Part shown: piece after piece, positions 22,842 to 45,709 of the stretch
Layout of the letters: every line of letters begins with the position of its first letter
Numbering within the stretch: position 1 is the stretch's first letter
Source: Eledone cirrhosa
Taxonomy: Eukaryota
Length of the DNA stretch: 64,000 bases
Direction: 5' to 3'
NCBI GenBank assembly: GCA_964016885.1
Contig: OZ024755.1
Location: forward strand, 6,944,001 to 7,008,000
Notes under the pieces: generated by a model
The model's database searches: none
What the model was told of the DNA's origin: nothing
Seen by the model: the letters and a program-made list of their open reading frames with translations, nothing else
Program-made: the position numbers and the translations under genes

Positions 22842-23079
22842 TGTAAAGTTATATTTAAAATTGTTGGGTTACAACTAGTAAATATTTATAACTAGCGTAA
22901 ACCTCTTCAAATGAAGTTGAAGTTTATTACGGTATGTCGAATATATTTATCTATAAAACTGTTTATATTGTATTTTGTCTGATGAAGGCATAGCATATTG
23001 TTAATATGATATCCCCGAAATATATATAATGAAATAAATATGGTTTTATAAATATAGTTTTCCATTTATTTAATATTGT
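22842..23079. mobile_element. Family C2 element with a + strand hammerhead at 22973-23034
   Basis: ttttgt-CTGATGA-aggcatagcatattg/ttaatatgatatcccc-GAAA-tatata-TA-atgaaa. Homologous to 45334-45709. Confidence 0.8.
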
Positions 23080-23477
23080 ATATATATATATATATATATA
23101 TATTTATATATATACCACATATCCTTCGTTATATATATATATATATATATATATATATATATATATATATATATATATATATATATATATATATATATAT
23201 ATATATATATATTGTTATACTTGGGGAGGGTCATATTGTTTTCTGTTATATATATATATATACGTACATACGTATGTCTGTGTCTGTCTGACAGTGTTTG
23301 TGTGTCTGTCAGTGTGTGAGTCTGTCTGTCTGTGTGTCTGTGTGTCTGTGTGTCTTCTATGCTATTATCAACAACAACCATATCAACTGATTGTATTTAG
23401 TCTGGCTTTCCGAAGTAAATGAAGTTTTTCACTTTAATATTCCCATGCTTTCGAGCAGAACAATTTTCCTCGCTTCA

Positions 23478-23990
23478 TTGGTGGTGGTAGTGGTGGTGGT
23501 GGTGGTGGTGGTGGTGGTGGTGGTGGTGGTGGTGGTACTGGTGGTGGTGGTGGTAGTGGTGGTGGTACTGGTGGTGGTGGTGGTAGTGGTGTTGGTGGTG
23601 GTGGTGGTGATAGTGGTGGTGGTGGTGGTGGTGGTGATAGTGGTGGTGGTGGTGGTGATGGTGATAGTGGTGGTGGTGGTGATAGTGGTGGTGGTGGTAC
23701 TGGTGGTGGTGGTGGTGATAGTGGTGTTGGTGGTGGTGGTGGTGATAGTGGTGGTGGTGGTGGTGGTGATAGTGGTGGTGGTGGTGGTGGTGGTGGTGGT
23801 GGTGATAGTGGTGTTGGTGGTGGTGATAGTGGTGTTGGTGGTGGTGGTGATAATTGTGTTGTTGGTGGTGGTGGTGGTGATAGTGGTGGTGGTGGTGGTG
23901 GTGGTGGTGGTGGTGGTGTTGGTGGTGGTGGTGGTGGTGTTGGTGGTGGTGTTGGTGGTGGTGGTGGTGGTGGTGGTGGTAGTGGTGGTG
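23478..23990. repeat. Interrupted (GGT)n
   Basis: Direct reading. Confidence 0.95.
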
Positions 23991-24125
23991 TTTCTACTTT
24001 GACTCAAGGCCAATAATTACTGGTACTGTATTTTATCGACTTCTGAAGTAGGAAAGGGATTTGAATTCGGAACGCAAAGGGCCGTACCTCTATGCGTCAG
24101 AGCATGTTGTCCGATGCTCATCGAT
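23988..24125 (-). mobile_element. Diverged SINE
   Basis: tactggtactgtattttatcgac...gggatttgaattc. Confidence 0.75.
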
Positions 24126-41503: not shown

Positions 41504-43900
41504 ATATATATATATATATATATATATATATATACATACATACATACATACATACATACATACATACATACATACATACATACATACATACATACATACA
41601 TATATATATATATATATATAATTTTGCAGTCTAACTTCCCCCCTTACCAACCACCGTATAAATATTGCATGATATCGATGACATTAAAACACAAAACATA
41701 AAACATAAATATATTCTTAATTATGAAATGAGTACTTCACAACTCTAGAATATTTCAATTGAAACTACTGACTTGCAACTCTAACCTGAACAGTTTCTTA
41801 TCTGAGGAGAGGACGTAAGCCTTTCTATGTCAGCCAACGAATCTATTAAACTCGCTGACACATTCAACATCAAATTTCATCTACTTTCAATAGAATCGCT
41901 TCTAATTATTCAAAGTCAATTAGAATCCTATTAAATTATCTATTAACATCACTGCCAGTGGATTCGTTCTTGTTGTTGTTGGTGGTGGTGGTAGTGGTGA
42001 TGTTGATGTTGTTGGTGGTGGTGGTAGTGGTGGTGTTGATGTTGTTGGTGGTGGTGGTAGTGGTGGTGTTGTTGTTGTTGGTGGTGGTGGTAGTGGTGGT
42101 GTTGTTGTTGTTGGTGGTGGTGGTAGTGGTGGTGTTGATGTTGTTGGTGGTGGTGGTGGTAGTGGTGGTGTTGATGTTGTTGTCACCGTTGCCACCGTCG
42201 TTACTGTCGTTGTTGTCTCTCTCTCTCTCTCTCTCTCTCTCTCTCTCTCTCTCTCTCTCTCTCTCTCTCTCTCTCTCTCTCTCTTTTAAATGTCTCGTCA
42301 TATGGTAGGGGAGCGATAGCTGCTATTATGATCGTTAATAATGATGAGAGGCGGGGAATAATTAGGATGATGATGATGATGATGATGATGATCATGATGA
42401 TGGGGAGGAGGAGAAGGAGGAGAAAAAGATATCACTGTCTTCAACGACAACGTATATATATATATATATATATATATGTATATATACATACATACATATA
42501 TATATATATACATACATATATATATATATATATATATACATACATATATACATATATGTTTAAGTTAAATATATATACATACACACATATATATGTATAT
42601 ATATATATATATACATACATACATATATATATATATATACATACATACATACATATATACACATATATATATGTTTAAGTTAAATATATATACATATATA
42701 TATATATATATATATATATATATATGTATATATATATATATATATATATATATATATATATATACATAGACATATATATATATATATATATATATATATA
42801 TATATATATATATATATATATATATACATAGACATATATATATATATATATATATATATATATATATATATATATATATATATACATAGACATATATATA
42901 TATATATATATATATATATATATATATATATATATATATATATATATATACATAGACATATATATATATATATATATATATATATATATATATATATATA
43001 TATATATATATACATACATACATATATACACATATATATGTTTAAGTTAAAAGAGCAATATGATATTAGGGAAAGAAAGTGAGTGTTCAGGAGACATTGG
43101 AAAGTTGTGTATCATCCGTCAAAAGGGTGAAATATGATAGGGAGGGAGGGGGAGGGAGGGAGGGAGGGGGAGGGAGGGAGGGAGGGGGAGGGAGGGAGGG
43201 ACTGTCAGATTCTTGGTCAGGGGTCCGTTAGAATTAACACCGTTAAATACAGCAGAATCATCTATATATATATCTACATATATATATATATATATATATA
43301 TATGTGTATGTATATATATTTAACTTAAACATATATGTATATATGTATATATATATATATATATATATATATATATATATATATATATATATATATGTGT
43401 ATATATATTTAACTTAAACATATATATATATATATATATATATATATACATATATATATATATATATAGATATATATATATATATATATACATATATATA
43501 TATATATTTAATACATTAACATATATGTATGTATATATATATATATATATATATACATATATATATACATATATATATATATACATATATACATATATAT
43601 ATACACATATATATAAACATATATATATATACATATACATATATATATATATATATATATATATATATATATATATATGGTCTAGACAGGGTAAAGTAGG
43701 ATTGGGGGGTTGGTTCGCCGAATGACCTCGTACGCCCGTCACGTGCACGGGGTGTCTGTGTGGGTAGGTGTCATGGGTGGAGCGGCCTGTGAGCTAACAC
43801 GTGCCCTCACAGTTAGCGGCAAAACATTGTTGTCACATATATAATGAAGATGATGGTTATGATGAAAGCGAGGCGGCTTTGGAGAGGGAGATAAAGAGCA

Positions 43901-45000
43901 GGTGGTGGTGGTGGTGGTGGTGGTGGTGGTGGTGGTGGTGGTGGTGGTGGTGGTGGTGATGGTGATGGTGGTGGTGTTGGTGGTGGTGGTGTTGGTGGTG
44001 ATGTTGTTGGTGGTGGTGGTGGTGGTGGTGATGTTGTTGGTGGTGTTGGTGGTGATGTTGGTGGCGGTGGTGGTGGTGGTGGTGGTGGTGGTGGTGGTGT
44101 TGGTGGTGGTGTTGGTGGTAGTGGTAGTGGTGGTGGTGGTGGTGGCGGTGGTGGTGGTGGTGGTGGTGGTGGTGGTGGTGGTGGTGGTGGTGGTGGTGGT
44201 GGTGGTGGTGGTGGTGGTGGTGGTGGTGGTGGTGGTGGTGGTGGTGGTGGTGGTGGTGGTGGTGGTGGTGGTGGTGGTGGTGGTGGTGGTGGTGGTGGTG
44301 GTGGTGGTGGTGGTGGTGGTGGTGGTGGTGGTGTTGTTGGTGGTGGTGGTGGTGGTGGTGGTGGTGGTGGTGGTGGTGGTGGTGGTGGTGGTGGTGGTGG
44401 TGGTGGTGGTGGTGGTGGTGGTGTTGGTGTTGGTGGTGGTGGTGGTGGTGGTGGTGGTGGTGGTGGTGTTGGTGATGGTGGTGGTGTTGGTGGTGGTGGT
44501 GTTGGTGTTGGTGGTGGTGGTGGTGGTGGTGGTGATGGTGGTGGTGGTGGTGGTGGTGATGTTGTTGGTGGTGTTGGTGGTGGTGGTGGTGGTGGTGGTG
44601 TTGGTGGTGGTGGTGGTGGTGGTGGTGGTGGTGGTGGTGGTGATGTTGTTGGTGGTGTTGGTGGTGGTGGTGGTGGTGGTGGTGTTGGTGGTGGTGTTGG
44701 TGGTAGTGGTAGTGGTGGTGATGTTGTTGATAGTGGTGGTGGTGGTGGTGGTGGTGGTGGTGGTGGTGGTGGTGGTGTTGGTGGTAGTGGAGGTGGTGGT
44801 GATGTTGTTGGTGGTGTTGGTGGTAGTGGAGGTGGTGGTGATGTTGTTGGTGGTGTTGGTGGTAGTGGTAGTGGTGGTGATGTTGTTGGTAGTGGTGGTG
44901 GTGGTGGTGGTGGTGGTGGTGATGTTGTTGGTAGTGGTGGTAGTGGTGGTGGTGGTGGTGGTGGTGGTGGTGGTGGTGGTGTGGGTGTTGATGTTGGTGT
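43901..45000. repeat. 1.1-kb interrupted (GGT)n
   Basis: Direct reading. Confidence 0.95.
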
Positions 45001-45333
45001 TAGTTTTGTTGTAGTGTTGTGGTGGTGGAATTGGTGTTGTTGATAACGAGTGTTTTTTTTTAAAGAAATACGAGAGCAACCACCACCACCACTACCACAG
45101 TAGTAGTAGTAGTAGTAGTAGTAGTAGTAGTAGTAGTAGTAGTAGTAGTGGCAGTAGTAGTAGTAGTAGTAGTAGTAGTAGTAGTAGTAGTAGTAGTAGT
45201 TACGCCAATAATTTCTCGACTATAAAGTTCTTTCGATTATAAATACGTGTGTGCATGTCTATATATATATTTATATATATATATTTATATATATATATTT
45301 ATATATATATATTTATATATATATATATATATA

Positions 45334-45709
45334 TGTAAAGTTATATTTAAAATTGTTGGGTTACAACTAGTAAATATTTATAACTGATATAAAAGCACTC
45401 GACAAATATTTGGAGTATATTTACAATATTAAATAAATGGAAAACTATATTTATAAAACCATATCTATTTCATTATATATATTTCGGGGATATCATATTA
45501 ACAATATGCTATGCCTTCATCAGAGAGTAAACCTCTTCAAATGAAGTTGATGTTTATTACGGTATGTCGAATATATTTATCTATAAAACTGTTTATATTG
45601 TATTTTGTCTGATGAAGGCATAGCATATTGTTAATATGATATCCCCGAAATATATATAATGAAATAGATATGGTTTTATAAATATAGTTTTCCATTTATT
45701 TAATATTGT
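45334..45709. mobile_element. Family C2 fold-back element (- core 45468-45524; + hammerhead 45603-45664)
   Basis: Inverted arms of about 100 bp, hammerhead identical to 22973-23034, (TA)n flanks. Confidence 0.85.

What the first reader, a model, noticed from the sequence alone, without database searches (positions are those of the whole stretch)
22842..45709. Family C: one arm has a fixed start while the opposite arm varies
Both C2 copies begin the forward arm at gtaaacctcttc (22898, 45527) and end it at aatattg+(TA). Their inverted arms start at the same tail end but run about 55 bp versus about 190 bp. Both C1 copies likewise switch at atccaggaagctcc (2966; reverse at about 55933-55946). 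The tail-bearing arm extends about 90-100 bp beyond where the other arm meets TA. Inference: a defined RNA 5' end and two priming events, one at the true 3' end and one at an internal TA-like site, resembling twin priming.
Basis: partly seen in the sequence, partly recalled or inferred. Interest (0 to 1): 0.7.

Follow-up and report, generated by a model that had tools for sequence, protein, structure and literature searches.

The report
Two-armed mini Penelope-like insertions
These small inserts in TA repeats carry a hammerhead ribozyme motif and two head-to-head arms that end at two fixed points about 90 bases apart, the published footprint of Penelope-like jumping genes, and they likely form when both cut DNA ends copy one short RNA.

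Summary
Each copy is (TA)n, an inverted tail-bearing arm, a forward tail-less arm, then (TA)n. Hammerhead, inverted arm and one-sided tail are the published anatomy of Penelope-like element (PLE) insertions, and two reverse-transcription starts bounding the tail are shown in vitro for another PLE. Thousands of reads from three public runs end at the same internal site. Arms of one copy share private variants, so they had one source. All 5 tail-less arms start 33-39 nt before a conserved splice-donor-like GGTATGTC, close to Penelope's start-to-donor spacing of 46 nt. But 2 of 3 independent read junctions start about 50 nt later, so the start is preferred, not fixed. The 'variable' arm is not random either: 3 of 4 stop 1-6 nt before the hammerhead core. 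The scan noted similar PLE stubs before, in shark- and fish-type DNA. No PLE protein gene was found and no RNA evidence obtained. Verdict: new member of a known kind, with a tail about three times the usual length.

The parts
22843..22893 (-). C2a inverted arm: distal 51 nt of the tail only, no overlap with the forward arm
   Evidence: 100% identical to the start of the C2b inverted arm
22894..22896 (.). C2a junction letters AGC; the start may lie up to 3 nt further 5' because C2b has AGA at the same place
   Evidence: the same junction is in one contig of run X1
22897..23078 (+). C2a forward tail-less arm, 182 nt; donor-like GGTATGTC at 22931; hammerhead 22971-23036 (core 22979, predicted cut after 23028)
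45335..45524 (-). C2b inverted tail-bearing arm, 190 nt; tail 45335-45423; stops 1 nt 5' of the hammerhead core
   Evidence: tail hairpins z -2.24
45527..45708 (+). C2b forward tail-less arm, 182 nt; GGTATGTC at 45561; hammerhead 45601-45666 (core 45609, predicted cut after 45658)
2754..2949 (-). C1a inverted tail-bearing arm; tail 2754-2845; stops 4 nt 5' of the hammerhead core; followed by a duplication of about 18 nt of arm sequence (2950-2967)
2965..3149 (+). C1a forward tail-less arm; GGTATGTC at 3004; hammerhead core at 3050
55767..55946 (-). C1b tail-less arm (copy in reverse orientation); GGTATGTC at 55907-55900; hammerhead core at 55866
55949..56145 (+). C1b tail-bearing arm; tail 56055-56145; starts 6 nt 5' of the hammerhead core (55955)
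   Evidence: tail hairpins z -3.12
38541..38799 (-). C3 (not in the finding): tail-bearing arm that reaches the family start; GGTATGTC at 38766-38759; hammerhead core at 38739
38794..38931 (+). C3 tail-less arm: begins at the family start (6-nt palindromic centre TCATGA) and lacks about 30 nt including the donor-like motif; hammerhead core at 38825
38525..38540 (+). Left copy of a 16-bp direct repeat flanking C3 (right copy 38932-38947): candidate target-site duplication
   Evidence: the 16-mer occurs only at these two places in the window

Best explanation
Family C copies are ORF-less, hammerhead-motif-bearing units of about 270 nt set head to head in (TA)n, and they likely arise when a Penelope-like enzyme nicks both strands of the target and each end copies the same short RNA from one of two fixed start sites about 90 nt apart. 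SHOWN: two fixed 3' ends, one per arm; both arms of a copy share private variants; tail-less arms share a start; a conserved hammerhead fold; two tail hairpins in C1 and C2; junction scars (2-3 extra letters, one duplication of about 18 nt). INFERRED: the copy primed at the proximal site (6-7 nt before the first tail hairpin) usually runs off the RNA's 5' end, which would be the transcription start inside the pseudo-LTR. The copy primed at the distal site (just after the second hairpin) usually stops earlier, most often at the 5' edge of the hammerhead. The two cDNAs are then joined end to end. The RNA would come from the upstream pseudo-LTR of an autonomous element or from a short non-autonomous master; neither was found.
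For: Hammerhead core motif in all 9 long arms; 93.8% of cells paired and 4 stem II pairs changed on both sides across C1/C2/C3, against 35-54% paired in slid controls. Inverted 5'-truncated copy, tail at one end only and (TA)n targets are PLE traits (PMC8557442; PMC3846280). The anole PLE protein cuts and extends both strands, initiates at two sites that bound the tail, and is predicted to be a dimer (PMC11167929). Reads ending in (TA)n at the same internal site: 7,756, 8,770 and 10,513, against tail depth of about 10,100, 10,100 and 9,100. Arms within a copy are 96-100% identical, against 91-93% between a C1 inverted arm and the other copy's forward arm. The proximal end lies 7, 7, 7 and 6 nt before the ACTCC hairpin in C2b, C1a, C1b and C3. 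GGTATGTC is the only 8-mer shared by the C1, C2 and C3 heads (51 of 20,000 shuffles), 33-39 nt after the start; Penelope's intron begins 46 nt after its start site inside the pseudo-LTR (PMC2377424). One read junction (X16, 9 reads) has 35 letters before 45561, a length and sequence compatible with the same start within about 2 nt (compared by eye).
Against: No PLE reverse transcriptase or GIY-YIG gene was recognised in the window's ORF list (read by eye; 4 ORFs scanned with Pfam), and no genome is held, so the mobilising enzyme is inferred. Of 4 visible skip junctions, one is probably C2a itself, one fits the start, and two land at 45578 and 45583, about 50 nt downstream. C2a and C2b are 98.9% identical and may share a source, so they are not fully independent. 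Rfam gave no hammerhead hit for the C2b or C3 motif at E up to 10, and single-strand minimum-energy folds of three motifs do not give the full hammerhead. No splice acceptor is conserved across all three subfamilies. In C3 the tail-bearing arm is the complete one. In family B the tail-bearing arm starts further 5' in 4 of 6 complete copies, so the asymmetry is not general. The tail is about 90 nt, not the published 30-40.
Confidence: 0.6

Rival explanations
1. PLE-type insertions, but the shared start is not an RNA 5' end. It is a preferred cDNA stop or trimming point, or a boundary inherited from short master copies.
For: 2 of 3 independent read junctions start elsewhere; the other arm already shows a preferred stop at the hammerhead edge; C2a and C2b may share a source; no RNA data.
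Against: The start sits at the same offset (33-39 nt) from GGTATGTC in three subfamilies whose heads share no other 8-mer (C1 vs C2 arms 74% identical). None of the 10 arms runs visibly beyond it.
Confidence: 0.2
2. The second arm is not primed by the target on the same RNA. It comes from fold-back self-priming (proposed for an antisense template in PMC3846280) or from a second RNA of the same source locus held in a hammerhead dimer.
For: C3 has a palindromic centre, and families B and D have near-perfect central palindromes. Stem III is a short palindromic loop, which suits dimer formation (PMC4209133). Two read junctions end the tail arm at 45474 and 45477, within 4 nt of the predicted cut.
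Against: C2a's inverted arm contains only tail sequence that is absent from its forward arm, so it cannot be a fold-back copy of that arm. Fold-back alone does not explain a second fixed 3' end. A two-RNA version cannot be told from the one-RNA version with these data.
Confidence: 0.12
3. Both arms first reached the start, giving a perfect palindrome, and later one-sided deletions at the centre removed part of one arm.
For: Long perfect palindromes are unstable and are stabilised by central deletions (recalled, no call). C3 reaches the start on both arms.
Against: The tail-less arm keeps its start to within 3 nt in 4 of 4 C1/C2 copies, and three stops cluster within 6 nt (P about 0.005 under uniform stops, post hoc).
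Confidence: 0.05
4. A TA-targeting MITE or fold-back DNA transposon with terminal inverted repeats of about 100 bp.
For: Short, non-coding, inverted repeats, TA flanks.
Against: C2a has no inverted repeat at all yet is 98.9% identical to C2b; the two termini differ by a 90-nt tail; junctions differ in every copy; the motif covaries as an RNA structure.
Confidence: 0.03

Closest known systems
Endonuclease-positive Penelope-like element insertions with inverted pseudo-LTR and one-sided tail (Craig et al. 2021, PMC8557442; Arkhipova et al. 2013, PMC3846280)
   Same: Head-to-head inverted 5'-truncated arm, tail on one end only, hammerhead in the repeat, (TA)n targets; solo pseudo-LTRs are reported.
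   Different: No ORF in any of 5 copies; tail 89-94 nt instead of 30-40; shared start of the tail-less arm; preferred stop of the other arm at the hammerhead edge.
Poseidon PLE of Anolis carolinensis in vitro (Frangieh et al. 2024, PMC11167929)
   Same: Both strands cut and extended; two initiation sites bounding the tail; AT-rich targets; stem-loop at the initiation site.
   Different: The two sites are 30-40 nt apart and lie inside the ORF start; the parts read (1-2 of 4) do not address how the inverted arm forms or where cDNAs stop.
Minimal type I hammerheads of PLEs (Cervera and De la Pena 2014, PMC4209133)
   Same: Conserved core, tiny palindromic stem III, long stem II; pairs 100-700 bp apart on opposite strands were noted in Schistosoma.
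   Different: Here stem II is longer, with an internal C-C mismatch, and Rfam models miss it; self-cleavage is untested.
Drosophila virilis Penelope 5' region (Schostak et al. 2008, PMC2377424)
   Same: Order: start, splice donor about 40 nt later, hammerhead, tail, all inside the pseudo-LTR region.
   Different: Start and splicing are measured for Penelope and only inferred here; no acceptor is conserved here.
L1 twin priming (recalled; only a search listing seen)
   Same: Two target ends prime on one RNA and give an inversion.
   Different: L1 primes on poly(A) and at a variable internal site, and the arms barely overlap. Here both sites are fixed and the arms overlap by about 100 nt in 3 of 4 copies.
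Non-LTR retrozymes (bioRxiv 10.64898/2026.07.22.740005; PMC7229834 listing only)
   Same: Short, non-coding, type I hammerhead, related to PLE pseudo-LTRs.
   Different: Retrozymes are head-to-tail tandem arrays; all 5 family C copies are dispersed head-to-head pairs.

Membership tests
Penelope-like element (autonomous) | Single ORF with telomerase-like RT and GIY-YIG endonuclease | tested here: not met
   All 5 copies are under 400 bp with no long ORF; they can only be truncated or non-autonomous products
PLE pseudo-LTR insertion | Minimal type I hammerhead in the repeat | tested here: met
   Core motif and covarying stem II; no Rfam hit; activity untested
PLE pseudo-LTR insertion | Inverted 5'-truncated copy adjoining the 5' end | tested here: met
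   5 of 5 copies
PLE pseudo-LTR insertion | Tail extension on one end only | tested here: met
   5 of 5 copies, but 89-94 nt rather than 30-40; both end types abundant in reads
PLE pseudo-LTR insertion | Sequence continuity with the end of an autonomous PLE | tested here: inconclusive
   No genome held; 4 short motifs absent from the Craig 2021 supplement, where line wraps may hide them; the 3' end of Naiad_Obim looked unrelated by eye
PLE pseudo-LTR insertion | Transcription start and 5' UTR intron inside the repeat | tested here: inconclusive
   Conserved donor-like GGTATGTC 33-39 nt after the start; no conserved acceptor; no RNA run available
PLE pseudo-LTR insertion | Target-site duplication (optional) | tested here: inconclusive
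   16-bp flanking direct repeat at C3 only; unreadable inside (TA)n for the other 4
Non-LTR retrozyme | Head-to-tail tandem units, each with a hammerhead | tested here: not met
   0 of 5 window copies are tandem
MITE | Fixed terminal inverted repeats at both ends of every copy | tested here: not met
   C2a has none; ends differ by the tail
L1-type twin priming | Poly(A)-primed 3' arm and variable internal priming site | tested here: not met
   No poly(A); the internal site is fixed in 5 of 5 copies and in thousands of reads

The most novel reading that the evidence does not exclude
The inverted arm of PLE insertions is made by double-ended target priming on a single RNA. One end starts before and one after a two-hairpin tail module. 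One cDNA runs to the cap of a transcript that starts in the pseudo-LTR, and the other halts at the hammerhead's 5' edge. Because the same template continues about 80 nt past that edge, the edge would be a cDNA stop and not an RNA end, giving the hammerhead a role in shaping insertions. The swarms of tiny copies would be run-off products from the upstream pseudo-LTR.
Probability: 0.35. Interest if true: 0.62.

Novelty: new member of a known kind. Interest (0 to 1): 0.36.

Why it matters
How PLEs make their inverted repeats and one-sided tails, and what their hammerhead does, are stated open questions (PMC8557442). A high-copy family only about 270 nt long (0.24-0.30% of reads in three runs), with four measurable endpoints per copy, makes those questions countable in one genome assembly. 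It also suggests that short inverted repeats in (TA)n of this genome could be mislabelled as MITEs.

Tried and rejected
Whole genome: none held. Rfam on the whole window: 359 matches at E up to 1; the 150 listed were microsatellite-driven miRNA-type matches below their gathering scores, none a hammerhead. No hammerhead family on the two motifs scanned alone. Collection scans: metagenome contigs gave 3 hits, of which L001 was read and is unrelated coding DNA, and L002 and L003 were not read; prokaryote genomes and viral contigs gave 0. Sequencing runs: no RNA holder listed. The RAD reads mostly begin about 21 nt before 45561, apparently at a restriction site (inferred), so they cannot histogram the start. 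The opposite-strand joints at 45608 come from the reference design, and the drop in depth at 45527 is where the reference itself changes arm. Splicing as the cause of the short arm or of the C3 deletion was rejected because no exon-1 sequence is joined at the donor. Pfam on 4 window ORFs: nothing above cut-off. Earlier scan notes by place: none; by sequence: one unrelated archaeal note; a second word search: none. Literature searches found no paper on this family, on a 90-nt tail or on cDNA stops at the hammerhead edge; the library lacks most subscription journals and Repbase. The octopus repeat paper's supplement and the bioRxiv supplements were not seen and could list this family.
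Full report
Setting. The window is AT-rich animal-type DNA; tandem-repeat masking removes 29,094 of 64,000 bases. No genome is held. Its interspersed repeats look like octopus repeats to me, but that is recalled and untested, and nothing below depends on it.

Observation. The four copies are as described. The forward arms start at 22897 and 45527 (C2) and at 2965 and 55946 (C1), and end AATATTG|(TA)n at 23078, 45708, 3149 and 55767. The inverted arms share a tail end. 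C2a's arm is 51 nt and C2b's is 190 nt. A fifth, more diverged copy (C3, 38541-38931) has the same plan and is flanked by a 16-bp direct repeat found nowhere else in the window. Tails measure 89, 92, 91 and about 94 nt.

All 9 long arms hold CTGA(T/C)GA...GAAA. Across C1, C2 and C3 (5 distinct rows) a type I hammerhead fold pairs in 93.8% of cells, against 35-54% when partners are slid. Four of six stem II pairs change on both sides, and stem III is two pairs with a 4-nt loop. Rfam does not recognise it and single-strand minimum-energy folds do not give the whole structure, so the call rests on motif and covariation; cleavage is untested. The tails of C2b, C1a and C1b fold into hairpins with z of -2.2, -2.7 and -3.1; the C3 tail does not stand out (z -0.3). 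The proximal end lies 7, 7, 7 and 6 nt before the first hairpin's ACTCC in C2b, C1a, C1b and C3.

Two fixed 3' ends beyond the window. I laid three RAD-seq read sets and one contig set, all labelled organism A, on 45336-45608, a stretch with no internal repeat. 29,490 of 12.47 M, 32,816 of 12.79 M and 37,818 of 12.65 M reads were laid, mostly at 90-95% identity, so a related subfamily dominates there. 7,756, 8,770 and 10,513 reads leave the reference for (TA)n at the same internal site as the window copies, while depth on the tail is about 10,100, 10,100 and 9,100. In X1, 7 contigs leave for (TA)n at the tail end. RAD depth is biased by cut sites, so the near 1:1 ratio is only consistent with one arm of each kind. 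The number of loci is unknown.

One source for both arms. Inverted and forward arms of one copy are 100% (C2b), 96% (C1a), 98% (C1b) and 97% (C3) identical where they overlap, against 91-93% between a C1 inverted arm and the other C1 copy's forward arm. Both C1b arms carry the CTGACGA variant. Later gene conversion between arms is not excluded. Junctions differ in each copy: 3 letters, 2 letters, a duplication of about 18 nt, a near-flush join, and a 6-nt palindrome. So the inverted structure was likely built at each insertion.

The shared start. It lies 34, 34, 39, 39 and up to 33 nt before GGTATGTC, the only 8-mer common to the three subfamilies' heads (51 of 20,000 shuffles). G|GTATGT fits a splice donor (established knowledge). 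In D. virilis Penelope the start site is inside the pseudo-LTR and the intron begins 46 nt later (PMC2377424: passages and section 15). Counting one start per subfamily, P = 0.004 under uniform starts (post hoc). Against this: one search showed 15 of 18 joints and 12 of 20 between-letter rows, and four visible junctions tell where a forward arm begins. 45385 to 45527 has C2a's own three letters and is probably that locus. 45474 to 45561 has 35 letters between, compatible with the start within about 2 nt by eye. 45477 to 45578 and 45432 to 45583 begin about 50 nt downstream. That gives 6 of 8 at the start when the 5 window copies and 3 independent junctions are pooled: preferred, not absolute. 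Most RAD reads begin just downstream of the start and cannot see it.

The other arm. C2b, C1a and C1b stop 1, 4 and 6 nt 5' of the hammerhead core, C2a stops inside the tail, and C3 reaches the start. P(3 of 4 within 6 nt) = 0.005 and P(3 of 5) = 0.011 under uniform stops, post hoc. Two read junctions end this arm at 45474 and 45477; the predicted cleavage site is between 45474 and 45473. Read length limits which junctions are visible, so that is only a lead. Two earlier scan notes reported copies starting at the hammerhead edge in shark- and fish-type DNA and prompted this measurement. Here the sister arm shows that the template continues about 80 nt beyond the edge, so if both arms came from one RNA the edge is a cDNA stop, not an RNA end.

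Mechanism. Shown: two fixed 3' ends, one per arm; one source; a shared start; junction scars. Inferred: a PLE RT-endonuclease nicks both strands in (TA)n, and each 3' end primes on the RNA, one just before and one just after the tail hairpins. The proximal cDNA mostly runs off the 5' end, the distal one mostly stops earlier, and the two are joined. The precedent is the anole PLE, which cuts and extends both strands and initiates at two sites that bound the tail (PMC11167929: parts 1-2 of 4). I put PLE origin at about 0.9, two-site initiation at about 0.85, the start as an RNA 5' end at about 0.6-0.65, and the whole at 0.6. Family B in the same window has one tailed and one tail-less arm in 6 complete copies, with 10 of 16 arm starts within reference positions 12-20. 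Its tailed arm starts further 5' in 4 of 6 copies and it has no recognisable hammerhead core. So the two-end rule looks general here, but the asymmetry does not.

Comparison and novelty. Inverted 5'-truncated copies, a 30-40 bp tail on one end and (TA)n targeting are described (PMC8557442: passages and supplement search hits). So are a shorter inverted pseudo-LTR, palindromic junctions and solo pseudo-LTRs (PMC3846280: passages), and opposite-strand hammerhead pairs 100-700 bp apart (PMC4209133: part 1 of 4). Retrozymes are tandem and differ (bioRxiv 10.64898/2026.07.22.740005: part 1 of 5 and passages). The octopus repeat annotation (PMC13282606: part 1 of 3 and passages; supplement not read) shows no such description in the passages seen. 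L1 twin priming is recalled; I saw only a listing. The copies fail the ORF test for an autonomous PLE, so they are filed as ORF-less pseudo-LTR insertions that work like PLE products. What my eight searches did not find in print is the 90-nt tail, the shared start and the hammerhead-edge stop of the partner arm. These rest on five copies and a few read junctions.

Noticed in passing
window 6907-7037, 8536-8723, 13315-13607, 17984-18181, 22254-22450, 33084-33143, 41345-41505, 56502-56708: Family B: same two-armed plan in (TA)n, with a tail-less end at TTCCT|AT and a tail of about 77 nt; starts cluster near GTCCAGAATTAG; no hammerhead core found. The copy at 13315-13607 is rearranged, with short direct repeats.
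   Followed up: partly
window 22590-22797, 22019-22154, 6049-6091, 7779-7811: Family D: hammerhead-like core (CTGAAGA or CTGATGA ... GAAAC) with both arms starting at a palindrome just before the core; the copy at 22019-22154 has a tail-only inverted arm like C2a.
   Followed up: partly
window 2581-2712, 7115-7245, 12251-12337, 28210-28337: Family E: single-armed short repeats with a compact minimal hammerhead motif (CTGATGA AGGAC TAGC GTCC GAAACGTT at 2594), 38 bp upstream of C1a.
   Followed up: no
window 13729-14107 and about 20 other places (e.g. 5051-5180, 10726-10916, 46129-46539): An abundant SINE-like repeat of about 190 nt; at 13729-14107 two copies form an inverted pair. It carries a GGTACT motif resembling the TTGAGT(A/G)C motif in the tails of families B, C and D.
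   Followed up: no
window 34812-35187 and 51199-51300: Two further inverted pairs, here with a TA or TATC microsatellite at the centre instead of on the flanks.
   Followed up: no
window 58691-59119 (+) and 60195-60560 (-): ORF fragments resembling a restriction-like-endonuclease LINE end and an L1/Tx1-type RT end (recalled resemblance; no Pfam hit).
   Followed up: partly
reads laid on window 45442 and 45477: Joints in which two tail-less ends face each other, or an arm runs back into another arm, suggesting family C also inserts into its own TA-like internal site.
   Followed up: no
   Followed up: no
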